Positions 12,830 through 57,081 of a stretch of DNA of 64,000 bases are shown one piece after another. A program made the position numbers and the translations under genes. This stretch comes from Leucoraja erinacea (Eukaryota): assembly GCF_028641065.1 (NCBI RefSeq), contig NW_026576267.1:62001-126000 (forward strand). Reading direction: 5' to 3'. The notes under the pieces were generated by a model. It saw nothing but the letters and a program-made list of their open reading frames with translations, searched no databases and was not told the origin of the DNA. The stretch's first letter is position 1. Every line of letters starts with the position of its first letter.

Positions 12830-13637
12830 ACTATTGTCTATTGTCTATTGTCTGTAGTCTGTAGTCTATAGTCTATAGTCTATTATCTATTGTCTATAGT
12901 CTATAGTCTATTGTCTATAGTCTATATGTAGTCTATAGTCTATAGTCTATAGTCTATTGTCTGTAGTCTATTGTATATAGTCTGTAGTCTATAGTCTATA
13001 GTCTATAGTCTGTAGTCTATAGTCTATTGACTGTAGTCTATAGTCTATTGTCTATTATCTATAGTCTGTAGTCTATAGTCTATAGTCTATAGTCTATTGT
13101 CTGTAGTCTATTGTATATAGTCTGTAGTCTATAGTCTATAGTCTATAGTCTGTAGTCTATAGTCTATTGACTGTAGTCTATTGTCTATAGCCTATTGTCT
13201 GTAGTCTATAGTCTATTGTCTATAGTCTATTGTCTGTAGTCTAGTCTATTGTCTATAGTCTATAGTCTGGAGTCTATTGTCTATAATCTATTAACTGTAG
13301 TCTATAGTCTATAGTCTATAGTCTATTAACTGTAGTCTATAGTCTGTAGTCTATTGTCTATAGTCTGTAGTCTATTGTCTATAGTCTGTAGTCTGCAGTC
13401 TATAGTCTGTAGTCTATAGTCTATAATCTATAGTCTATAGTCTATAGTCTGTAGTCTATAGTCTATAATCTATTAACTGTAGTCTGTAGTCTATAGTCTG
13501 TAGTCTATTGTCTATAGTCTATAGTCTGTAGTCTATAGTCTGTAGTCTATAGTCTATAGTCTATAGTCTATAGTCTATAGTCTATAGTCTATTAATAGTC
13601 TGTAGTCTATAGTCTATAATCTATTGTCCATTGTCTA
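12830..13637. repeat. About 800-bp 7-mer tandem array (TAGTCTA / TAGTCTG / TTGTCTA)
   Basis: Continuous 7-bp periodicity, beginning as (TATTGTC)n. Confidence 0.97.
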
Positions 13638-13659: not shown

Positions 13660-13805
13660 GGACCAACGGCCACGTGGAAGCGGGATCTCATTTGCATGGG
13701 GCCCACGAGCCACCAATCGTCTGCGGCGGAATGTCCGGGGCGGGAGCCAATGGGAATGGCGGCGCTGTGCTATCCCTCATTTGCATGCGGCCACCTATGA
13801 AAGGG
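13660..13805 (+). promoter_or_regulatory. H2B-type promoter with two octamers, two CCAAT boxes and a TATA-like box
   Basis: ATTTGCAT at 13690-13697 and 13779-13786; CCAAT at 13713 and 13747; TATGAAA at 13796. Confidence 0.8.
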
Positions 13806-13850: not shown

Positions 13851-14267
13851 ATGCCGCAGCGGGCAGCCAGGGGCAGAGCGCCGCGCCGGGGGTGTGGGAG
13901 GCCGAAGAAAGCGCCCGTCAAGAAGCGCCTCAAGCCGGGCGAGAAGAAGAAGAAGAAGCAGAAGCAGAAGCAGCGGCGCAAGGGCGGCCAGCTCAACTAC
14001 GGCATCTACATCTACAAGGTGCTGAGGCAGGTCCACCCCAACGTGCGCATCGCCTCGTCGGCCATGAGTGTGATCAACTCCTTCGTGCACGACGTCTTCG
14101 AGCGCATCGCCTCCGAGGCGGCCAACCTGATCCGCACCAGCAAGAGGAAGACCATGTCGTCCCGGGAGATCCAGACGGCCGTGCGCCTCCTGCTGCCCGG
14201 GGAACTGGCCAAGCACGCCGTGTCCGAGGGGACCAAAGCGGTCAGCAAATACACCAGCTGCAAATAG
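13851..14267 (+). CDS. Divergent histone H2B variant, 138 aa, with long Arg/Lys-rich N-terminal tail
   Basis: [14 protein letters not shown]...[14 protein letters not shown]...[36 protein letters not shown] is an H2B fold. Intronless; ATG 13851 is the first ATG after the octamer/TATA. Confidence 0.95.
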
Positions 14268-14328
14268 CAACGCGAAACTCCAGTACTCTCCCCTCCTTCT
14301 CTCTCAATCCACACAACTCCGACCCAAA

Positions 14329-14344
14329 GGCTCTTTTCAGAGCC
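14329..14344 (+). terminator. Histone mRNA 3' stem-loop
   Basis: ccaaaGGCTCTTTTCAGAGCCa matches the SLBP-binding consensus; a purine-rich segment lies about 20 nt downstream; AATAAA at 14499. Confidence 0.92.
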
Positions 14345-22305: not shown

Positions 22306-23867
22306 CTACCAAACATTGAGAGACGAAGTGTTTCTTTCTAATTGATTGAAAGATACAGCATGAACACAGGCTTTTAGACCACTGTGTCCCTGTCGATCAT
22401 CGATTACCCGTTTACAAAAGTCTTCTTCCCGCTGCCCCCCCGCACCCCCCCCCCCCCCCCCCCCCCCCCCATCAGTCTGAAGAAGGGTCTCGACCCAAAA
22501 CGTCACCTATTCCTTCGCTCCATAGAGGCTGCCTCAACCGTTGAGTTTCTCCAGCATTTTTGTCTACACCTGTTCACACTAGTTCTGTGTTATCCCACTT
22601 TCCCATCCACTCTTTAGACTTTAGACTTTGGAGATACAGCGTGGAAACAGGCCCTTCGGCCCACCAAGTCCACATTGACAATGATCACCCCACACAAATA
22701 GCACTTTCCTACAGTGGGGGCTAATTTACACGTTACAGAAGCCAATTAACCTATAAACACGTACGTCTTTGTGAAGTGTGGGAGGAAACCAGAGCACCCG
22801 GAGAAAACCCATGCAGTCACAGGGAGAACGTACAAACTCCGTACAGACAGCATCCGTAGTCAGGGACGAACCCGGGGATCTAGCGCTTTGATCTTGGGCT
22901 TGTACACTCTGGAGTTTAGAAGGATGAGAGGGATTCTTATTGAAACATATAAGATTATTAAGGGTTTGGACACGCTAGAGGCAGGAAACATGTTCCCGGT
23001 GTTGGGGGAGTCCAGAACCAGGGGCCACACACAGTTTAAGAATAAGGAGTAAGCCATTTAGATCGGAGACGAGGAAACACTTTTTCTCACAGAGAGTTGT
23101 GAGTCTGTGGAATTCTCTGCCTCAGGTGGAGGCCGGTTCTCTGGATACTTTCAAGAGAGAGCTAGATAGGGCTCTTAAAGATAGCAGAGCCAGGGGATAT
23201 GGGGAGAAGGCAGGAACGGGGTACTGGTTGGGGATGATCAGCCATGATCACATTGAATGGCTGTGCTGGCTCGAAGGGCCGAACGGTCTCCTCCTGCACC
23301 TGTTGTCTATTGTCCATTGTCTATTGTGAGGCAGCAACTCAGCCACTGCGCCGCCCAGATTTTTTAATTTTATTACAATTATGATGCTTCTAAATCAATA
23401 CCAAAGATACCAATACATCATTCAAAATCTCTGGGTATATTTTTTTATTGGGTAGGGCTTATTTTAAGTGTTGCAAAAGCAATACCAAGACAAAATTCCA
23501 AATATCTGGGTATATTTTTTTATTGGGTAGGGTTTATTTCAATAGTCCATTTACATTCAGATTTTGAATTTAAATTGAAATTCAATCAATTTGAATTTGA
23601 TTCAATCCCGTCTCCACCATTTTGCAATGTTAAATATTTTGGTTTTCATTTGTATCATATAATACAATAGTCCTTTTAAATACAGATTTTGAATTTAGAT
23701 TGAAATTCATGCAATTTGAATTTGATTCAATCCTGTCTCCACCATTTTGCAATGTTAAATATTTTGGTTTTCATTTGTATCATGTATCCAATGGATAAAA
23801 GTATCACATGTATCCAATTCGATTGACGGCTGCAAATCTATTATAGCCCAGTCTAAAAAGTTTAAGT

Positions 23868-23883
23868 GGCTCTTAAAAGAGCC
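23868..23883 (-). terminator. Histone mRNA 3' stem-loop
   Basis: Minus strand reads caaacGGCTCTTTTAAGAGCCactta, 46 nt after the H2B stop codon. Confidence 0.93.
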
Positions 23884-23929
23884 GTTTGACGGTCTCGTCG
23901 CAGCTTTTGATGGAGAGGGGAGAACGGAT

Positions 23930-24352
23930 CTACTTGGAGGAGTTGGTGTATTTGGTGACCGCTTTCGTCCCCTCCGAGACGGCGTGTTTGGCCAGTTCTC
24001 CGGGCAGCAGCAGGCGGACGGCGCTCTGGATCTCCCGGGAGGAGATGGTCTGGCGGCGGGTGTAGTGCACCAGGCGGGAGGCCTCGGAGGCGATGCGCTC
24101 GAAGATGTCGTTGACGAAGGAGTTGCTGACGCTCATGGCCTTGGAGGAGATGCCCGTGTCCGGGTGCACCTGCTTCAGCACCTTGTAGATGTAGGCGCTG
24201 TAGCTCTCCTTCCTGGCCTTCCTGTGCTTCTTGTCGCCCTTGCGGCTCATCTTCATGGCCGTCTTCTTCGAGCCCTTCTTGGAGATGGCGCCTTTGGCGC
24301 TCGCCGCCGAGGCACCACCAGTGGCGGCGGCGGCGGCAACGACGGTCGGCAT
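23930..24352 (-). CDS. Histone H2B variant, 140 aa, with Ala-rich N-terminal extension
   Basis: [27 protein letters not shown]...[16 protein letters not shown]...[37 protein letters not shown]. Intronless and followed by a stem-loop. Confidence 0.96.
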
Positions 24353-31894: not shown

Positions 31895-32392
31895 TTAACA
31901 GCACTTGGCTCCCACCGGGTTGCAACATTTCGCCTCCTTTTTCCTGCGGTTGAGCTCTTTTTTCGGCGGCGCTCGCTTCTCGGGCGGAGCCCGGCGTTGT
32001 TCCTGTTCTTGCTCCTGCTGCTGCTGCAGCTTCTTCTCGGCCTTCTGCTCGCGGTCGAGGCGGAGGCAGGCGGTGGTGGCCGCCGCCACCTTCCTGCGGC
32101 CGCGGGGGGGAGGCGGGGGCTGCTCCTCCTCCTGCGAGCTGTCCGGCGTCAGCCCCGACACGGCCTTGCGCATGTTCCGGCGGTTCTCCTCCTCGTCGTA
32201 GCCGTTGGAGCGCACGAACTCCCGCAGCGCCAGCAGCGAGCGGCGGCTGAGTCGCCGGTGCGCCGACACCGCCTGCCTCATCAGCTGCACGATCAGTTGC
32301 TGCGTCCGCCGGCTCCGCCGGTAAGGCCGCCCTCGGCGTCGTGGGGCGGGCGCGGCGCCGGGCACGGTCTTGGGTCTGGGTCTGGCAACCAT
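31895..32392 (-). CDS. Arg-rich, highly divergent linker-histone H1-derived protein, 165 aa (protamine-like candidate)
   Basis: IVQLMRQAVSAHRRLSRRSLLALREFVRSNGYDEEENRRNMRKAVSGL aligns to H1 globular helices ([48 protein letters not shown]). Intronless GC-rich ORF with upstream TATA and minus-strand AATAAA near 31674-31679. Confidence 0.72.
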   Translation of the reverse strand: MVARPRPKTVPGAAPAPRRRGRPYRRSRRTQQLIVQLMRQAVSAHRRLSRRSLLALREFVRSNGYDEEENRRNMRKAVSGLTPDSSQEEEQPPPPPRGRRKVAAATTACLRLDREQKAEKKLQQQQEQEQEQRRAPPEKRAPPKKELNRRKKEAKCCNPVGAKCC

Positions 32393-32494
32393 CTGAAGCT
32401 GCGCGTAGTTATAGCTCGGACACAAGCGGCTTCTCCCTCCAACCCTCAGCGTCGCCGCTCGACTCGCAGCTGCAGCTCAGCGCCGCCCTCACCC

Positions 32495-32580
32495 CCCTTT
32501 ATAACCGCGCCCCCCAACAATCCCACCAATCACAGAACGCCCCTCCCACAACACGTCACAGGAGGGCCGGTGACGTCAAC
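32495..32580 (-). promoter_or_regulatory. Promoter with TATAAA, CCAAT and perfect CRE
   Basis: TATAAA on minus at 32503-32498, CCAAT at 32526, ACGTCA half site at 32553, TGACGTCA at 32571-32578. Confidence 0.75.
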
Positions 32581-34052: not shown

Positions 34053-34354
34053 AATAATCAGAATTTTGTCCGAGCCAGGATTAATAGCCTGATGGCTGTG
34101 GGGAAGTAGCTATTCCTGAACCTGGTTGTTGCAGTCTTCAGGCTCCTATACCTTCTACCTGAAGGTAGAAGGGAGACAAGTGTGTGGCCAGGATGGCGTG
34201 GGTCTTTGATGATACTGCCAGCCTTTTTGAGGCAACGACTGCGATAAATCCCCTCGATGGAAGGAAGGTCATCATACTTATAATCAAAGATCATAGAGCG
34301 GAGCTATGATCTCTGATTATAATCAAATCGCTCTATCATCTTTGATTATAATCA

Positions 34355-34530
34355 NNNNNNNNNNNNNNNNNNNNNNNNNNNNNNNNNNNNNNNNNNNNNN
34401 NNNNNNNNNNNNNNNNNNNNNNNNNNNNNNNNNNNNNNNNNNNNNNNNNNNNNNNNNNNNNNNNNNNNNNNNNNNNNNNNNNNNNNNNNNNNNNNNNNNN
34501 NNNNNNNNNNNNNNNNNNNNNNNNNNNNNN
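34355..34530. other. Assembly gap (N run)
   Basis: Run of N. Confidence 1.
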
Positions 34531-35657
34531 CTTGACTTGAATAATAATAATAATATTATAATAATAATAACATCAAATCGTCCGATCAGCAGAGAAGATT
34601 ATTGGCTGCAACGTTTCCTCCATTGATAGAAACATGGAAACATAGAAAATAGGTGCAGGAGTAAGCCATTCGGCCCTTTGAGCCTGCACCGCCATTCAAT
34701 ATGATCATGGCTGATCATCCAACTCAGTATCCCGTACCTGCCTTCTCTCCATACCTCCTGATCCCTTTAGCCACAAGGGCCACATCTAACTCCCTCATAA
34801 ATATAGCCAATGAACTGGCCTCAGCTACCCTCTGTGGCAGAGTGTTCCAGAGATTCACCACTCTCTGTGTGAAAAATGTTTTTCTCATCTCGGTCTTAAA
34901 AGGATTTCCCCTTATCCTTAAGCTGTGACCCCTTGTCCTGGACTTCCCCAACATCGGGAACAATCTTCCTTCATCTAGCCTGTCCAACCCCTTAAGAATT
35001 TTGTAAGTTTCTATAAGATTCCCCCCTCAATCTCCTAAATTCTAGCGAGTATAAGCCAAGCCTATCCTGTCTTTCTTCATATGAAAGTCCTGACATCCCA
35101 GGAATCAGTCTGGTGAACCTTCTCTGCACTCCCTCTATGGCAATAAAGTTCTTCCTCAGATTTGGAGACCAAAACTGTACCCAATACTCCAGGTGTGGTC
35201 TCACCAAGACCTTGTACAACTGCAGTAGAACCTCCCTGCTCCTATACTCAAATCCTTTTGCTATGAATGCTAACATACCATTCGCTTTCTTCACTGCCTG
35301 CTGCGCCTGCGTGCCTACTTTCAATGACTGGTGTACCATGACACCCAGGTCTCGTTGCATCCTCTCACCCTGGCCACAAACTCTTTGAATCACTTCCCTC
35401 TGGAAGGCGACTCCAGGCTGTCAAAGCTGCCACAGCCAGATATAAAAACAGTTTTTATCCACGAGTAGTTGCTCTACTCAACAGCCAAAAATCTGTAGCC
35501 TCCCCTTGATCTGGTATTTTGTTGGTTCACATGCTTGATCAATGGTGTTTTATCATTATGATTAATGTTTAGTGTTTTCTGAGTCATTCGTAACTGTCAC
35601 TGTATGTCATGTTGTTACTTGTGGGCGGAGCATCAAGGCAAATTCCTTGTATGTGAA

Positions 35658-36056
35658 NNNNNNNNNNNNNNNNNNNNNNNNNNNNNNNNNNNNNNNNNNN
35701 NNNNNNNNNNNNNNNNNNNNNNNNNNNNNNNNNNNNNNNNNNNNNNNNNNNNNNNNNNNNNNNNNNNNNNNNNNNNNNNNNNNNNNNNNNNNNNNNNNNN
35801 NNNNNNNNNNNNNNNNNNNNNNNNNNNNNNNNNNNNNNNNNNNNNNNNNNNNNNNNNNNNNNNNNNNNNNNNNNNNNNNNNNNNNNNNNNNNNNNNNNNN
35901 NNNNNNNNNNNNNNNNNNNNNNNNNNNNNNNNNNNNNNNNNNNNNNNNNNNNNNNNNNNNNNNNNNNNNNNNNNNNNNNNNNNNNNNNNNNNNNNNNNNN
36001 NNNNNNNNNNNNNNNNNNNNNNNNNNNNNNNNNNNNNNNNNNNNNNNNNNNNNNNN
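35658..36056. other. Assembly gap (N run)
   Basis: Run of N. Confidence 1.
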
Positions 36057-40159: not shown

Positions 40160-40700
40160 ATTACATTAAATATAATAATCATAATAATAATAGCAACAAT
40201 AACAACAACAACAACAACAACAACAACAATAGCAATAATAATAATAATAACAATCCAAATCAGGATAATAGCAACAATAATAACAATAATAATAGCAACA
40301 ATAATAACAATAATAATAATAGAAACACTAATAATAATAGAAACTAATAATGATAATAACAACAATAATAATAACAATAATAATAATAATAACAACACTA
40401 ATAATGATGATAACAACAATAATAATAGAAACACTAGTAATGAGAATAAAGACAATAATAATAATAATAATAGAAACACTAATAATAATAACAACAATAA
40501 AAATGATAATGATAATAATAATAATAACAACAATAATCATCATCATAATAACAACAATAATTATAAAAATAATAATAGTAATATTAATAACAACAATAAT
40601 AGTAATGCCAATAATAATAATAGCAACAATAACAACAATAATAATAATAATAATAATCATAATAGCATCAACAACAATAATAACAGAAATAACAATAATC
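40160..40700. repeat. Degenerate (AAT/AAC)n microsatellite
   Basis: Trinucleotide periodicity. Confidence 0.97.
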
Positions 40701-42419
40701 AAGAGTTCAAGAGTTCAAGAGAATTTATTGTCATGTGTCCCTGATAGGACTAATGAAATTCTTGCTTTGCTTTAGCACACCAGAACATAGTCGGCATGAA
40801 TACAGAACAGATCAGTGTGTCCATATACCATTGAATAAATATATATACACATGAATAAATAAACTGATAAAGTGCAAATAAACAGATTATGGGCTATTAA
40901 TGTTGAGAGTTTTGTCCGAGCCGAGTTTAATAGCCTGATAGCTGTGGGGAAGCAGCTATTCCTGAACCTGGTCTTTGTAGTCTTCAGGCTCCTGTACCTT
41001 CTATCTGAAAGTAGTGGGGAGATGAGTGTATGGCCCGGATTGTGTGGGTCCTTGATGATGCTGGCAGCCTTTTTGAGGCAGCCACTGTGATAGAGCCCCT
41101 CGATGGTGGGGAGGTCAGAGCCGTTGATGGACTGGGCAGTGTTTACTACATTTTGTAGTCTTTTCCGCTCCTGGGCGCTCAAGTTTCCGAACCAAGCCAT
41201 GATGCAACCGGTTAGCATGCTCTCCACTGTGCACCTGTAGAAGTTCGAGGGAGTCCTCCTTGACAAACCGACTCTCCGTAATCTTCTCAGGAAGTAGAAG
41301 CGCTGATGTGCTTTCTTTATGATACCATCAGTGTTCTCGGACCAGGAAAGATACAATAACAATAATAATAATAACAATAATATCAACAACAACAACAATA
41401 ATCACAATAATAATAAAGGAGTCCAGAACCAGGGGTAACAGTTTAAGAATAATGGGGAGGCCATTTAGGACTGAGATGAGGAAAAACTTTTTCACCCAGA
41501 GAGTTGTGGATCTCTCACATTTCACTGCACCTTATCTGTGCTGTTACTTGGGGTAATGTTGGTGACTTCCTCTCCAGAGTAACCACAATGCTTCGGTGTG
41601 AATCAATGTTTTAAATTTTAGTTTAGTTTATTATTGTCACGTGCACTGAGATACAGTGAAAAGCTTGTGTTTGCGGACTATCCAGTTAAAGGAAAGGCCA
41701 TGCAGTCTTTTGCAACGGTCTCCAATGAATTAGATGGGAGGTCAGGACCAGACTCTGGATGATTTCAAACAAAAAGCTTCTCACTGTACCTCAGTACACG
41801 TGACAATAAATAAAGTTAAAATTGAGACTCAAACTGGAGCTAAGACTAAAACTAAAAAAACTAGAATTCCAACTGCAAACTGCAACCACAACTAATCTAA
41901 ACTAAAGTAAACTCAACTATTATGCAGTGATAATAGACAATAGACAATAGACAATAGGTGCAGGAGTTGGCCATTCAGCCCATCGAGCCAGCACGGCCAT
42001 GCAATGTCTGATCATCCCCAGTCAGTACCCCGTTCCTGCCTTCTCCCCATATATCCCTGACTCCGCTATTTTTAAGAGCCCTATCTAGCTCTCTCCTGAA
42101 AGCAAAGATACTGGAGTATCTCCTCTAGTATCTTTGTTTGAAAGTATCCAGAGAACCGGCCTCCACTCTCTGAGGCAGAGAATTCCACAGACTCTGTGAG
42201 AAAAAGTGTTTCCTGTTGTTTGGATGTTGAATTTTCAAGATTTGGTGAGAGAAAGGAAAGCAGAAATAAATTAAGTAAAACTTTAAAGCGAGAAATTGTA
42301 TTATTCTCAGTTGTACAAAGATACAATTTTATATTTAGCTCTGGAGGGTGGCCAGAAAAAATAAATCCTAAAGTCAAACAAATGACTTGAGGTGTGAGCT
42401 GTGCTTAGGATATTTTAAG

Positions 42420-48807: not shown

Positions 48808-49593
48808 ATGACCGACATGGAATCGCCGGGCGTGGACTTTTCCACCGCGGCCACCTCGCTGCTGCTGCAGTCGCCGATGCCGCCGCCGGCGGTGCCGCCG
48901 CCGCTGCTGCTGCCCGAGGAGACGGACTCGCTGGACATCGCGGTGGCCGTGAAGAAGAAGCGCCGGCCGTACCGCCACAGGAAGTTCGGCTGCACCGTGG
49001 CCGAGCAGATCATGAGGGCGGTGGCGGCCACCAAGGAGCGGCGGGGGCTGTCGGTGGCCGCCGTCAAGAAGCTGCTGTCGGCCAGCGGCTACGACCTGGC
49101 TCGCCACAACACGCGGGTCAACCGCGCCGTCCGCACCCTGGTCAGCAAAGGCTCGCTGGTGCAGACGACGGGCAGCGGCGCCTCGGGCTCGGTCCGGCTC
49201 GGCAGGTGCCCGCAGGACTTGGTGGCGGCGGCGGCGACGTTCAAGTTGCCGCTGGGGGCGGCTGCTCGCCGGACGGTGTTATCCAGGAGGACGGCGGCCA
49301 AGAAGTCCAAGAGGCTGATGGCGAGGGGCGGTGGTGGAGGCAAGAAGAGGCGGCGGCGCAGTCAGTTGAAGAAGGCTGGCCGGCACCACAAGAAGGCGGG
49401 AGGCGGCGGCTTGAAGAAGGTGACCGCCCGCTGGAAAACGGTCCGGGCGAGGAGGGCGCTGGCCAAGGGCCGCATCTTCAGGCGAAGGGTCAAGAAGGTG
49501 GAAACGAAGATTGTTCGGGACAGCGTCAAGCCCACGGACTTGGTGGATGAGAAAGCGACTCTTACGCAAAACACTGAACCGAACAAGTGCTGA
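48808..49593 (+). CDS. Linker histone H1-like protein, 261 aa, Arg-rich variant (protamine-like candidate)
   Basis: TVAEQIMRAVAATKERRGLSVAAVKKLLSASGYDLARHNTRVNRAVRTLVSKGSLVQTTGSGASGSVRLG is a complete H1/H5 winged helix followed by a basic tail. Intronless, in a CpG island; AATAAA at about 49667 and 49679; no stem-loop seen. Confidence 0.92.
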   Translation: MTDMESPGVDFSTAATSLLLQSPMPPPAVPPPLLLPEETDSLDIAVAVKKKRRPYRHRKFGCTVAEQIMRAVAATKERRGLSVAAVKKLLSASGYDLARHNTRVNRAVRTLVSKGSLVQTTGSGASGSVRLGRCPQDLVAAAATFKLPLGAAARRTVLSRRTAAKKSKRLMARGGGGGKKRRRRSQLKKAGRHHKKAGGGGLKKVTARWKTVRARRALAKGRIFRRRVKKVETKIVRDSVKPTDLVDEKATLTQNTEPNKC

Positions 49594-51589
49594 ACGGTTT
49601 AGACTTAAGTTAACCTCAAAATGTGTAACAGACATATGTGTGCTAAATGATTTTTTTTGTGGATCTAATAAAGGAAAAAATAAAATCGTGCATCATTGTG
49701 CATATACTTGTGTTTGAAAAAAAATTTCAATTGCAAACGGGATTCTTGCGTCTCTGTCTCTGCCCCTTTCCTAGGCCTGCACCACCCGCCTTACCCAAGG
49801 AGTAAACCACCTCACAAGGGACCAAGGAGTAACACCTCACTGAGACCAAGGAGTAACCACTTCACTGAGACTACTGTCTATGGCATGTTTAAGAGAACTG
49901 CGTTGCAGATGCTGGAAAAATTTACGGTAGACAAAAATGCTGGAGAAACTCATGAGACCAAGAAGTGAACCCACCTCACAGACTTACTGTCTAATGAAAT
50001 GACATGTTGAAGAAAGAACTGCAGATGCTGGGAAAATATTGCCATTAAATCTTTCCCCTCACCTTAAAACTATTTTCTGGTCTCTGATTCCCCTACTCAG
50101 TTAAAAAAAAAACTCCACTCTAGTTATTCCCCCTCATTATCTTATACACCTCTTCTCCTGTAGCTTAGACTCAAGTACTGGCAACATCCTCGTACATATC
50201 CGCGCTCCGTCCAGTTTAGCAACTGGCAGGGTATCCAAAAGTGAACACATCTCCAAATGCAGTCTCGCCAAGGTCTTCCACAACTGACATAAATCCCAAC
50301 CTCTATATTCAATTCCCTGACTGATGAAGGCCAATGTGCCGTACACTTTCTTGACTACCCTATCTTCTTCCGTCTGCAGAAGGGTCTCGACCCGAAAGGT
50401 CACCTATTCTTTCGCTCCACAGATGCTGCCTCACCCGCTGAGTTTCTCCAGCATTGCGGTCTACCGTCCATTTTTACAGCATCTGCAGTTCCTTCTCAAA
50501 CCTATCTTCTTGTGATGCTACTTTCAGGGAACTTTGTATCTGCCTCGTTAGATCCCTCTGCTTCATAGCATTCCCCAAACCTCCGCCGTTCACAGTGAAT
50601 CCGAAAGAGGAAGATATAATTGTTAGCTGTAGATTTCGGAAAGCGTCGGTCTAACTATGACTTTTGATGGGCAAAATTCTTACCACCTCCTTCCCAATAC
50701 AGAATATGAGACACGAGACATTAGATGTGATTTTAACGCATTATAGTCATAGAGTGATAGAATGTGAAAACAGGCCCTTCGGCCCAACTTGCCCAAACCA
50801 GCCAACATGTATTGTGTTGTATATCTTTATTGTCATTTCCCGAGTATTCACATACCCAGAGGAAACAAAAAAACGTTGCTCAACCAGTGTCCATTCAGTG
50901 TGCATAAAAAATAAATAGAAATAAGAATACATATATCATGAACAAATTAACACTATACTAAACATCAACAGGCGTTCCGATTGGCAGCGGCACGACAGTG
51001 GCTCTGCTGCAGTGTGTCCAGGTTGGTGGTTGGTGCGCGATACTTTGGCAGGGGGCAAAGTCCGCTTAGCAGTCTTATAGCCTGCGAGTAGAAGCTGAGG
51101 AGCATCCTGCTGGTTTTGCAGCTAATGCTCCTGTACCTCTTCCCAGATGGCAGGATGGAGAATATGTGATGCGATGGGTGGTAGGGATCTTTGATGATGG
51201 AGATGGCTCTGCTGATACACCTCTTCCTGTATATGTCCAGCAGGAAAGGGGGTGGAGCACCAATAATTCTGCTGGCGGTCTTCACAATCCTGTCTAGTTG
51301 GTGCCGTTGGTACGCCTTGCAGCTCTCGAACCAGGAAGTGATGCCGTAGGTTAATGTGCTCTCGATTGTCCCCCTATAAAAAGTCCCAGCTACACTAGCC
51401 CCACCTGCCCGTGTTTGGTCCATATCCCTGCAAACCTGTCCTATCCTTGCAGCTATCTAACTGTTTCTTAAATTAGACAGAGATTCGCATGAAAAATTAT
51501 CAGTTACTTTAGCTGTCGAATAACATCAGTAGATCTTAATGGACACTGAGGCACACACATATAGATCACAACATCAATATTATTTAAAC

Positions 51590-55173: not shown

Positions 55174-55791
55174 TTATTTCCTGGAACCCGATTCCTTGCC
55201 TTTGCCCTTCTTGGTGCCTTGAGATTTCTTTAAAACCCGCCTCGCCGCCCTCCTCAGATGTTTCCTGACCCCGCCGAAGGCACCACGCAGTCTGCTCTTC
55301 CATCCCGGTTTCCCCGAGTCTTCGGCCCCCGGTTGACTATTTGGACAGAGTGCGCTTTCCCCGCTCTCTGTTGTCTCGTCTGGTCGCAACCTGGAGACCA
55401 GACCCTGCTCCTCCGGCGTGGAGCAATCGCCCCTCTGCTCCACCAGCGCTGTGACCGCCGACTCGCCGTCTGGCCGGGGACATGGATCATCTTCACCGGG
55501 GGCGACTCTGAAATCCTCCGGGTATTCGATTTTTGCAAAACCACCCGAAGAAAGGTGCTCCCATACAGCACCAGGAAAAAGGGCGCTGGTGGTCTCACTC
55601 TTGTAGTTGCGTTCTGCTTTCTGGCTGGCGCTCTCCCTCAGGCTGCTCAGGACGACCCTCTCGGTCTCTTCCAGGTACATTTGCTGGTATTCCCACCAGT
55701 AGTAAGGCTTCCCCCAGCAGCGAGACACGTGGCAGCAACTGATGCAGACCGCGATTGCCACAAGGACAAGCAGGAGGATCAGTCCAGCCAT
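55174..55791 (-). CDS. CALHM family channel, coding exon 2 (TM4, cytoplasmic helix, long tail); spliced protein 383 aa
   Basis: Acceptor ctctctccctgcAG|ATG, then MAGLILLLVLVAIAVCISCC..SRC..YWWEYQQMYLEETERVV..RESASQKAERN. The intron falls just before TM4 as in CALHM genes. Stop TAA at 55174-55176. Confidence 0.82.
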   Translation of the reverse strand: MAGLILLLVLVAIAVCISCCHVSRCWGKPYYWWEYQQMYLEETERVVLSSLRESASQKAERNYKSETTSALFPGAVWEHLSSGGFAKIEYPEDFRVAPGEDDPCPRPDGESAVTALVEQRGDCSTPEEQGLVSRLRPDETTESGESALCPNSQPGAEDSGKPGWKSRLRGAFGGVRKHLRRAARRVLKKSQGTKKGKGKESGSRK

Positions 55792-56547
55792 CTGCAGGGA
55801 GAGGGGGAGGTGCAGATAAAGTGGATATGAAAAAGGGTCTCGACCCGAAACATCACCCATCTCTTCTCTCCAGAGATGCTGCCTGTCCCGCTGAGTTAGT
55901 ACAGTTTTTTGTGTCTATCATCAGCCGTGATTGAATGGCGGAGTGGGCTCGACAATAGACAATATGTGCAGGAGTAGGCCATTCGGCCCTTCGAGCCAGC
56001 ACCACCATTCAATGTGATAATGGCTGATCATCCCCAATCAGTACCCCGTTCCTGCCTTCTCCCCATATCCCCTGACTCCGCTATCTTTAAGAGACCTATC
56101 GAGATCTCTCTTGAAAGTATCCAGAGAACCTGCCCCCACCGCCCTCTGAGGCAGGGAATTCCACAGACTCACAATTCCCTCTGTGTGAAAAAGTGTTTCC
56201 TCGCCTCCCTTCTAAATGGCTTACCCCTTATTCTTAAACTGTATGTGGCCCCTGGTTCTGGACTTCCCTAACATCGGGAACATGTTTCCTGCCTGTAGCG
56301 TGTCCAAACCCTTAACAATCTCATATGTTTCGTCAAGATATCCTCTCATCCTTCTAAACTCCAGAGTGTACAAGCCCAGCTGCTCCATTCTCTCAGCATA
56401 TGACAGTCCCGCCATCCCGGGAATTAACCTTGTAAACCTACATTGCACTCCCTCAATAGCAAGAATGCAAGCAAGAATTTCATTGTCCTATCTGGAACAC
56501 ACATGACAATAAACTCTCTTGATTCTTCAATCTTTGAATCTACTCAC

Positions 56548-57081
56548 TCGCGATTCAAACTTCAAAGTGCGGATTACTTCGGAGTCCTCCTTCGGCGGTT
56601 CTTGGGGCTGGGCTGTTAATGGAGTATCTTGTCCATGAGCAAGCCTAGAGAAGTATTGGATACAGCAGTAGCAGTCGCCATCCAGGAGAACCACCATAAT
56701 CCACATCCAGCCGTGGTAGAAGACTTTGAGAAAGGAGACGAGCTGCCAGGAGGCCGGGCGTTGGCGGCGGGGGTCCGAGATGGTCACCAGGTGGTCGCTG
56801 CGTTTTGCCACAGCCCTCTGTGGACAACGGCAGTAGACCAGGCATTCCCTGTGGACAAAGACACTGAGGAGGGTGAGGACGGTCGCCGGGACCAGGAGGA
56901 AGGAGATGCCGTAGACCTGGTTGTAGGCGACCAGCCAGGGGCACTGGCATCCTATCTCGGCCATCTCTTGCAAGCCCCAGAAGACGGTGGCCACCACCAG
57001 GGATCCGATCACCTTGAAGATGGGTGTCCCCACCAGGGCTAGCTTGTCGTGCTCAGACAGTTGCAGAAGGTTGAGAGGCAT
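56548..57081 (-). CDS. CALHM (FAM26) family large-pore channel, coding exon 1
   Basis: TM1, CQCP..YNQVYGISFLLVPATVLTLL, WMWIMVVLLDGDCYCC and LKFESR match CALHM motifs (FxCPC, NxxYGxxFLLxPA, WxxxxLLDGxxYxC, KxxSQ). gccATG at 57081; phase-0 donor GTGAGT after 56548. Confidence 0.85.

What the first reader, a model, noticed from the sequence alone, without database searches (positions are those of the whole stretch)
48808..49690. Arg-rich H1 with acidic/Pro-rich leader, possibly a processed protamine-like precursor
Seen: a leader of about 48 aa that is acidic and Pro-rich precedes KKKRRPYRHRK and an intact winged helix. After the globular domain I count about 21 Arg and 20 Lys, with Gly runs and no S/TPKK motifs, whereas somatic H1 tails are Lys/Ala/Pro-rich. 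It has AATAAA rather than a stem-loop. It shares an RPYR motif just before helix I and a terminal KC (caagtgctg) with the 31895-32392 gene, which suggests a diverged paralog pair. Inference: a PL-type protein whose leader might be cleaved, as happens for mammalian protamine 2.
Basis: partly seen in the sequence, partly recalled or inferred. Interest (0 to 1): 0.7.

Follow-up and report, generated by a model that had tools for sequence, protein, structure and literature searches.

The report
Arginine-rich linker histone of cartilaginous fish
This skate gene encodes a DNA-packaging linker histone with an arginine-rich tail, one of several such variants shared by sharks, rays and chimaeras and probably used in developing sperm cells, though nothing here shows that it is a cleaved protamine precursor.

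Summary
In detail: a 261-aa intronless H1 (48808-49593) with a 48-aa acidic/Pro leader, intact winged helix, 21 Arg/20 Lys tail, no S/TPxK and AATAAA instead of a stem-loop. It has orthologues in skates, rays, sharks and a chimaera, and belongs among at least four Arg-rich H1 subfamilies whose named members are all chondrichthyan. Its globular domain is of the replication-dependent type (50-56% to H1.1-H1.4), not H5/H1.0 (30-37%), the lineage published for PL proteins. It is less basic than somatic H1 (23% versus 29-32% Lys+Arg), even without the leader. The leader looks like an enlarged ordinary H1 N-terminal subregion, although its junction (LDIAVAVKKKRRPYRH) is unusually conserved. No reads covered the ORF in 4 of 4 RNA runs of unknown tissue. 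Best reading: a tissue-restricted, probably spermatogenic, full-length H1t/HILS1-like variant (0.55); protamine-2-like leader cleavage 0.08; PL-like tail excision 0.13. The 31895-32392 gene is probably a wingless H1 derivative with a CRE/CCAAT/TATA promoter, but the shared 'KC' is chance-level. Testis expression and processing were not shown.

The parts
48808..49593 (+). Intronless ORF, 261-aa Arg-rich linker histone H1 variant (P0001; 'subfamily A')
   Evidence: 88% identical to Amblyraja radiata 'histone H1-like'
48808..48930 (+). Distal leader (residues 1-41), acidic and Pro-rich, net charge of residues 1-48 = -7; composition conserved, sequence not (residues 1-35: 28% mean identity to 8 distant orthologues)
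48931..48987 (+). Conserved junction LDIAVAV (42-48; 72% mean identity) plus basic N-terminal subregion KKKRRPYRHRKF (49-60; 84%); NLS-like basic run (inference)
48988..49203 (+). Globular winged-helix domain (residues 61-132), replication-dependent H1 type
49264..49497 (+). Basic tail core (153-230): 19 Arg, 15 Lys, 0 Asp/Glu, Gly runs, no S/TPxK; contains Trp209 (a tail Trp next to basic residues is in 11 of 12 orthologues)
49498..49593 (+). Neutral-to-acidic C-terminal cap (231-261), net -1, and stop codon
49667..49684 (+). Two AATAAA hexamers 73 and 85 nt after the stop; no histone stem-loop
48650..48741 (+). Upstream CpG-rich region with an AC-box-like AAAGCACA (-158), GC box (-132), weak TTTAAC (-99) and half-CRE (-71); weak, motifs recalled and short
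31895..32392 (-). P0002, 165 aa: probable wingless H1 derivative (basic stretch plus helices I-III, residues 14-82), Arg/Glu/Gln-rich tail, 5 Cys; AATAAA 215 nt after the stop
32498..32578 (-). Promoter of P0002: TATA (-111), CCAAT (-138), TGACG (-166) and the only full CRE palindrome TGACGTCA of the window (32571-32578)
13851..14344 (+). Divergent H2B with an Arg/Lys-rich N-tail, two octamer motifs upstream and a stem-loop at 14329; same histone-variant neighbourhood
23843..24352 (-). H2B gene with octamer and Rfam Histone3 stem-loop

Best explanation
A tissue-restricted linker-histone variant, most likely of spermatogenic cells, that arose from the replication-dependent H1 lineage before chimaeras and elasmobranchs split, lost the stem-loop for polyadenylation, and works full-length. 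Its intact winged helix binds the nucleosome like other H1s (fold shown by model; binding inferred). Its tail swapped Lys for Arg, lost the S/TPxK CDK motifs and is bracketed by an acidic leader and a neutral cap, so the protein is less basic than somatic H1. By analogy with H1t and HILS1 it would be a weaker, replication-uncoupled linker histone that replaces somatic H1 before true protamines are deposited (inferred). The conserved LDIAVAV-KKKRRPYRH junction is best read as an import or chaperone contact beside the NLS-like run (inferred). It is one of at least four such paralogous subfamilies, mostly on one chromosome; P0002 is probably a more eroded member.
For: Domain affinity: 77.6/71.5 bits to chicken GH1/H1.4 against 30.4 (H5), 29.7 (H1.0), 19.7 (H1x); identity 50-56% against 30-37%, 24-26% and 22% for H1.8. 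Orthologues in 10 other named species incl. Callorhinchus, clade support 94/92 and 95/82. Tail R/(R+K) 0.39-0.72, no S/TPxK/R in 12 of 12; HILS1 lacks these motifs, H1t has one or two, and both condense chromatin poorly (PMC6069787, passages). Net charge per residue 0.17 against 0.25-0.29 in 11 of 12 canonical-looking H1s (one at 0.16). ESM Atlas nearest cluster 'spermatid-specific linker histone H1 family protein', 0.93, and 'testis-specific H1 histone', 0.91 (automatic names; a lead). Depth 0 over the ORF and 3' UTR in 4 of 4 RNA runs from 4 studies while the flanking SINE had depth in the hundreds to thousands. Neighbours: an Arg-rich H2B variant and P0002 with a CRE/CCAAT/TATA promoter, a layout recalled from post-meiotic genes.
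Against: No testis or sperm expression was seen: tissues of the 4 runs are unknown, their organism is not shown to be the window's species, only 1-25% of each run was read, 64 letters at 48858-48921 were skipped as repeats and no unique-gene control lay in the stretch. Arg enrichment also marks erythrocyte H5 (recalled). H1t, HILS1 and PL-I sequences were not in my trees. The focal gene has only a half-CRE. The junction being as conserved as the globular domain is also what a processing site could look like. In Chiloscyllium, Mobula and Pristiophorus orthologues helix III and the wing are eroded (26-58% and 50-61%), so normal nucleosome binding may not be the conserved function.
Confidence: 0.55

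Rival explanations
1. PL-type sperm protein processed the documented way: the Arg/Lys-rich tail core (about residues 153-230) is cut out from the winged helix and the neutral cap and serves as a protamine-like peptide in late spermatids or sperm.
For: PL proteins are defined by a winged helix plus a 30-50-aa Arg/Lys-rich C-terminal stretch that is cleaved off in molluscs, tunicates and a liverwort (PMC13148410, passage). Here 78 residues hold 34 Arg+Lys and no acid, bounded by an uncharged linker and a neutral cap; best 40-aa window 42-58% basic in 10 of 10 orthologues checked. PL precursors can lack the wing (PMC11607694 section 10), as P0002 does.
Against: Domain is not H5-type. Longest Arg run is 3-6 and the densest window is no more basic than a somatic tail (median basic fraction 0.32 against 0.40). 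Chondrichthyan sperm are described as using small Cys/Arg-rich protamines (recalled; Saperas 1997 seen only as a reference title). No conserved cleavage motif flanks the core.
Confidence: 0.13
2. One reading: a precursor whose acidic/Pro leader is removed after DNA binding, as for mammalian pro-protamine 2, giving a mature protein that starts near KKKRR.
For: An acidic leader with at most 2 basic residues is kept in 12 of 12 orthologues (20-58 aa, 4-11 Asp/Glu; canonical H1s 15-21 aa, 1-3) and the junction is strongly conserved. Pro-P2 is processed once bound to DNA and its leader is needed for import (PMC9258737, passage).
Against: Every H1 N-terminal domain has a distal Ala/Pro-rich subregion and a proximal basic one (PMC7261198, passage), and VKKK aligns with H1.4 VKKK region. 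LDIAVAV is absent from the Narcine and chimaera orthologues. Removing the leader yields only 28.6% Lys+Arg, the level of somatic H1. No homology to protamine 2 was seen in any search.
Confidence: 0.08
3. A variant for another restricted cell type: oocyte/early embryo (B4/H1.8-like role) or nucleated erythrocytes or other terminally differentiated cells (H5-like role), reached convergently from the replication-dependent lineage.
For: Polyadenylation signal and Arg enrichment fit any replacement H1; reduced basicity and acidic ends resemble oocyte H1s (recalled). Tissue was not determined.
Against: 22% identity to H1.8, 30-37% to H1.0/H5. Zero reads in 4 of 4 runs, where blood or embryonic cells might be expected, argues weakly against erythroid use. 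Neighbour P0002 has a CRE-type promoter.
Confidence: 0.2
4. A broadly expressed minor somatic H1, or a dead copy.
For: RefSeq names the orthologues only 'histone H1-like'; CpG-rich promoter.
Against: Open frame and 79-86% identity of helices I-II across sharks, rays and chimaera exclude a dead copy; no reads in 4 of 4 runs.
Confidence: 0.04

Closest known systems
Mammalian H1t (H1.6)
   Same: Derived from the replication-dependent H1 lineage and sits among histone genes (recalled for H1t; for this gene); few or no S/TPxK motifs (PMC6069787).
   Different: This gene has AATAAA and no stem-loop, a long acidic leader, a tail with half its basic residues Arg, and several paralogues; orthology with H1t was not tested.
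Mammalian HILS1 (H1.9) and H1T2 (H1.7)
   Same: No S/TPxK motif (HILS1, PMC6069787); nearest ESM Atlas clusters carry these automatic names.
   Different: HILS1 domain is only 43-49% similar to H1d/H1t and its tail is 53 aa (PMC6069787); here the domain keeps 50-56% identity and the tail is 129 aa. No sequence hit to a named HILS1 among the proteins I could name.
PL-I protamine-like proteins (Spisula, Mytilus PL-II/IV, tunicates, Mullus)
   Same: Winged helix plus Arg/Lys-rich C-terminal stretch.
   Different: Published PLs derive from H5/H1.0 (PMC13148410, PMC11607694); this domain does not. Overall Lys+Arg 23% (PL range of about 35-50% recalled). Documented PL processing releases the C-terminal stretch (PMC13148410, PMC5550673).
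Mammalian pro-protamine 2
   Same: Non-basic N-terminal stretch before a basic region.
   Different: No sequence relation found; P2 has no winged helix and is far richer in Arg/Cys/His (recalled).
RefSeq 'histone H1-like' of Amblyraja, Pristis, Heptranchias, Heterodontus, Chiloscyllium, Mobula, Narcine, Callorhinchus
   Same: These are the orthologues.
   Different: Automatic names only; no functional description found in 10 paper searches.

Membership tests
Linker histone H1 family | H15 winged-helix domain with three helices and a wing | tested here: met
   Pfam PF00538 E 6.8e-17; model and Foldseek rmsd 0.8-1.3 A to H1.1/H1.4
Canonical replication-dependent somatic H1 | Globular domain of H1.1-H1.5 type | tested here: met
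   68-78 bits, 50-56% identity
Canonical replication-dependent somatic H1 | Lys/Ala/Pro tail with S/TPxK motifs | tested here: not met
   21 Arg/20 Lys, 0 motifs
Canonical replication-dependent somatic H1 | 3' histone stem-loop | tested here: not met
   none behind the gene; AATAAA twice
H1.0/H5, H1x, H1.8/B4 | Globular domain nearest to these subtypes | tested here: not met
   H5/H1.0 25-30 bits, 30-37%; H1x 17-20 bits, 24-26%; H1.8 22%. By pairwise score, not by tree
PL-type SNBP (PL-I) | Winged helix plus 30-50-aa Arg/Lys-rich C-terminal stretch | tested here: met
   residues 153-230, 44% basic; best 40-aa window 45%; definition from PMC13148410
PL-type SNBP (PL-I) | Descent from H5/H1.0 | tested here: not met
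PL-type SNBP (PL-I) | Lys+Arg clearly above somatic H1 (about 35-50%, recalled) | tested here: not met
   23.4% whole, 28.6% without leader; canonical-looking H1s 29-32% in 11 of 12
PL-type SNBP (PL-I) | Major protein of mature sperm chromatin; proteolytic processing | not testable with these tools
   needs sperm proteomics
Testis-specific H1 variants (H1t, HILS1, H1T2) | Expression limited to spermatocytes/spermatids | tested here: inconclusive
   0 depth in 4 of 4 runs of unknown tissue
Testis-specific H1 variants (H1t, HILS1, H1T2) | Orthology by tree and synteny | not tested
   no named H1t/HILS1/H1T2 sequence was returned by any search; no genome held
Protamine-2-type precursor | Cleaved N-terminal leader | not testable with these tools
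   only indirect: junction conserved, but leader matches the ordinary H1 N-terminal layout

The most novel reading that the evidence does not exclude
Cartilaginous fishes carry an old cluster of Arg-rich H1 paralogues, derived from replication-dependent H1 rather than H5, that spans the H1-to-protamine path in one genome: intact winged helix (this gene), eroding wing (bamboo shark, manta orthologues), wingless Cys-bearing form (P0002). One or more are proteolytically processed (tail excised or leader removed) into spermatid intermediate proteins or protamine-like peptides, giving vertebrates a second, independent route from H1 to sperm nuclear basic proteins.
Probability: 0.15. Interest if true: 0.78.

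Novelty: new variant of a known kind. Interest (0 to 1): 0.45.

Why it matters
Germline H1 variants and H1-derived sperm proteins are known kinds, so this is not a new mechanism. What appears undescribed (10 searches of the held paper library, none listing it; older subscription papers on dogfish sperm proteins were not readable) is that chondrichthyans have at least four conserved Arg-rich H1 subfamilies from the replication-dependent lineage, reaching back to the chimaera split, plus a wingless derivative. The published H1-to-protamine hypothesis rests on H5-type precursors, mostly in invertebrates. These genes give named, checkable candidates in a vertebrate whose testis is zoned by stage and for which a 31-tissue expression table already exists (PMC11979771).

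Tried and rejected
No genome is held for the window, so copy number and wider synteny were not read; co-location rests on identical 'longest contig' lengths. The look-up of sequencing runs: no RNA holder listed, not used as evidence. P0002: no hit among 805 candidates, no Pfam family at E<=1, pairwise BLAST to P0001 E 0.77, not in the protein collection; with the basic stretch left out its HMM score (7.9 bits) was equalled by 1 of 1000 shuffles, so the paralogy is probable, not certain; it was left out of all trees. Terminal KC/caagtgctg as paralogy evidence rejected. Full-length AlphaFold2 model low confidence (pLDDT 53), not used beyond helix positions. Monophyly of subfamilies A+B+C: 0.97 FastTree, 89/83 LG+G4, but unresolved under the mixture model (14% of bootstrap trees); not claimed as settled. 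Exact H1 AC box AAACACA absent from the proximal promoter. A SUMO-interaction-like reading of V-L-D-I holds in 5 of 12 orthologues only, not in the window's protein; rejected as a claim. Earlier findings: 3 look-ups, nothing. Paper searches listed no paper on these genes; searches returned none at all. Supplements of PMC13052469 and PMC11979771 could not be read; the latter's expression datasets bear directly on tissue. A PNAS paper on tunicate PL was not held. No complex prediction was run: no binding claim is made.

Full report
Observation. The ORF runs 48808-49593 on + and gives 261 aa. The 48 residues before KKKRR hold 7 Asp/Glu, no Lys/Arg and 19% Pro. The globular domain is residues 61-132. 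After it come 21 Arg, 20 Lys, 12 Gly and no [ST]Px[KR]. AATAAA lies at 49667 and 49679; a stem-loop pattern was found only behind the two H2B genes of the window, and Rfam found Histone3 only at 23843-23888. Pfam gives Linker_histone at E 6.8e-17. A model of residues 49-136 has three helices and a hairpin (pLDDT 80) and superposes on H1.1/H1.4 at 0.8-1.3 A; its alignment was made of H1s, so this confirms compatibility, not independence.

What it is related to. The whole-protein search returned 17 proteins of 8000 scored, all chondrichthyan where named; the best is Amblyraja radiata 'histone H1-like' at 88%, so the window is a skate. Eleven are orthologues from skates, sawfish, manta, electric ray, sharks and Callorhinchus; they form a clade with the window's protein at 94/92 (11 rows, LG+G4) and 95/82 (7 rows, mixture model), on only 76 columns. 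A search of 1.84 billion representatives with residues 36-135 gave 594 hits, 150 listed. In a FastTree of 156 domains a clade of 30 rows (0.97) holds the orthologues (subfamily A) and two more groups (B, C); all 29 rows other than the window's are named chondrichthyan. A fourth Arg-rich group (D; four sharks) is a separate well-supported clade (100/94). A single origin of A+B+C has 89/83 under LG+G4 but is unresolved under the mixture model. In 6 of 8 species with two or more of A-D and contig data, the paralogues list the same longest contig: four subfamilies on one 74.5-Mb contig in Heterodontus, A and C on a 64.6-kb contig in Callorhinchus; Rhinoraja and Chiloscyllium punctatum are the exceptions. 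Same contig means same chromosome, not a proven tight cluster. All four groups have tails with median R/(R+K) 0.53-0.62, against 0.01 in 16 canonical-looking H1s that I chose by eye.

Lineage of the domain. Against solved structures the domain scores 77.6 bits to chicken GH1 and 68-72 to H1.1-H1.4, but 25-30 to H5/H1.0 and 17-20 to H1x. Identities are 50-56%, 30-37%, 24-26%, and 22% to Xenopus H1.8. It is therefore a derivative of replication-dependent H1 that has lost the stem-loop. Published PL proteins are derived from H5/H1.0 (PMC13148410, passages; PMC11607694, section 10). No named H1t, HILS1 or PL-I sequence was returned, so those were not in any tree.

The leader. Canonical H1s begin with 15-21 residues, 14-35% Pro, 1-3 acids, before their first basic pair (15 of 15 rows), which is the known distal subregion of the H1 N-terminal domain (PMC7261198, passages). 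In subfamily A this stretch is 20-58 aa with 4-11 acids (12 of 12): longer and more acidic, same layout. Against 8 distant orthologues residues 1-35 keep 28% identity, LDIAVAV 72%, KKKRRPYRHRKF 84%, helix I 86%, helix II 79%, helix III 53%, wing 74%, tail 24%. The junction is thus under strong constraint in most elasmobranchs, but LDIAVAV is missing in Narcine and in the chimaera. That could be a processing site or a binding site; pro-protamine 2's leader itself is needed for import (PMC9258737, passage). Removing the leader gives 28.6% Lys+Arg and net 0.24 per residue, the level of somatic H1 (29-32%, 0.25-0.29 in 11 of 12 rows); the full protein has 23.4% and 0.17. So cleavage would not produce a protamine-like protein. 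Where PL processing is documented it frees the C-terminal Arg/Lys stretch. Residues 153-230 (19 Arg, 15 Lys, no acid) between an uncharged linker and a neutral cap would be the candidate, but Arg runs are short (3-6).

Expression. Four RNA runs from four studies gave depth 0 over 48812-49720, while the SINE 700 bases downstream had depth of hundreds to thousands. Tissue is unknown, the organism is not shown to be the window's species, 1-25% of each run was read, 64 letters of the leader were skipped as repeats, and there was no unique-gene control. This argues mildly against a housekeeping H1 and says nothing positive about testis. The ESM Atlas ranks clusters named 'spermatid-specific linker histone H1' (0.93) and 'testis-specific H1' (0.91) first and fourth; names are automatic. 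HILS1 has no S/TPxK motif, H1t one or two, and both condense chromatin poorly (PMC6069787, passages).

The 31895-32392 gene. Pairwise similarity is not significant (E 0.77), Pfam and the homologue search found nothing. Profile comparisons do: E 1.1e-4 over 68 columns with the 17-row alignment, E 1.1e-5, probability 82%, over 54 columns with 69 H1s; an HMM of subfamily A gives 14.9 bits against at most 9.0 in 1000 shuffles and ranks it second of 1272 six-frame segments; without the basic stretch 1 of 1000 shuffles ties it. The Atlas also returns H1 clusters first (0.89). The match covers RPYR and helices I-III and stops before the wing. Its promoter has TATA, CCAAT, a TGACG and the window's only full CRE, 180 bases upstream (0.65 such sites expected in the whole window), a layout I recall from CREM-driven spermatid genes. 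The shared KC 9-mer is noise (E 9.4); only the two skate sequences end in KC. The window also holds an Arg-rich H2B variant and a second H2B, both with stem-loops.

Mechanism, shown and inferred. Shown: intact H1 fold, replication-dependent ancestry, deep conservation, Arg-rich motif-free tail, reduced net charge, poly(A) signals, Arg-rich paralogues. Inferred: germline expression, full-length action as a weaker replacement H1 ahead of protamines, junction as import/chaperone contact (0.55). Rivals: other restricted tissue (0.20), PL-type tail excision (0.13), protamine-2-like leader removal (0.08), broad or dead (0.04).

Literature. Ten searches listed no paper describing these genes. Seen as passages: PMC11607694 (also section 10), PMC13148410, PMC7261198, PMC6069787, PMC9258737, PMC5550673, PMC12216123, PMC4257556, PMC13052469, PMC11979771, PMC11173109. 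Saperas 1997 on chondrichthyan sperm proteins was seen only as a reference title; what I say of dogfish protamines, the 35-50% PL range, H5 and CREM is recalled. Supplements of PMC11979771 and PMC13052469 were unreadable and may hold tissue data.

Verdict. A real, conserved, automatically annotated but apparently unstudied H1 variant family: a new variant of a known kind. The precursor idea as worded is unlikely; the more interesting point is the chondrichthyan set of Arg-rich H1 paralogues, including a wingless one, which makes the H1-to-protamine question checkable with existing data. Interest 0.45.

Noticed in passing
window 13851-14344 (+): Divergent H2B with an Arg/Lys-rich, Gln-containing N-tail, substitutions in the fold and a C-terminal Cys; two octamer motifs and a stem-loop. 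The real start is probably 13851, not the upstream ATG at 13731. Candidate germline H2B variant.
   Followed up: partly
window 23843-24352 (-): Second H2B with an Ala-rich N-tail extension, octamer and Rfam stem-loop; a six-frame and ORF look found no H2A, H3 or H4 ORF of 90 aa or more in the window, so the neighbourhood is H2B, H2B, H1-like, H1.
   Followed up: partly
window 31895-32578 (-): P0002: wingless H1-like ORF with 5 Cys, not in the protein collection, with full CRE, CCAAT and TATA; the best candidate here for a spermatid transition-type protein and worth its own follow-up.
   Followed up: partly
P0016, P0018, P0019, P0020, P0034, P0043, P0046 (subfamily B): Subfamily B paralogues carry a C-terminal GRPRK AT-hook-like motif (7 of 13 checked) and their own acidic leader ending in L[ST]V[DE]KAIARK in sharks.
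   Followed up: no
P0010, P0013, P0011, P0012: In bamboo sharks, sawshark and manta orthologues helix III and the wing are eroded while the leader junction and helices I-II stay conserved.
   Followed up: partly
window 49432-49434 (Trp209): A tail Trp beside basic residues is present in 11 of 12 orthologues, unusual for an H1 tail; lies in a low-confidence predicted helix 203-226.
   Followed up: no
window 55174-57081 (-): CALHM/FAM26-like gene in two pieces (Pfam Ca_hom_mod E 3.4e-14 and 0.016), probably two exons; a useful synteny marker.
   Followed up: no
P0132, P0172, P0173; P0136, P0161; P0145, P0026: Other Arg-rich H1s exist in alligators (multi-copy) and teleosts or unnamed sources; they did not group with subfamily A with support.
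   Followed up: partly
window 12900-13625, 40328-40775, 49822-50528: Simple-repeat tracts (TCTATAG-like, ATC-like) and SINE fragments that draw abundant RNA reads; N gaps near 34350-36050.
   Followed up: no
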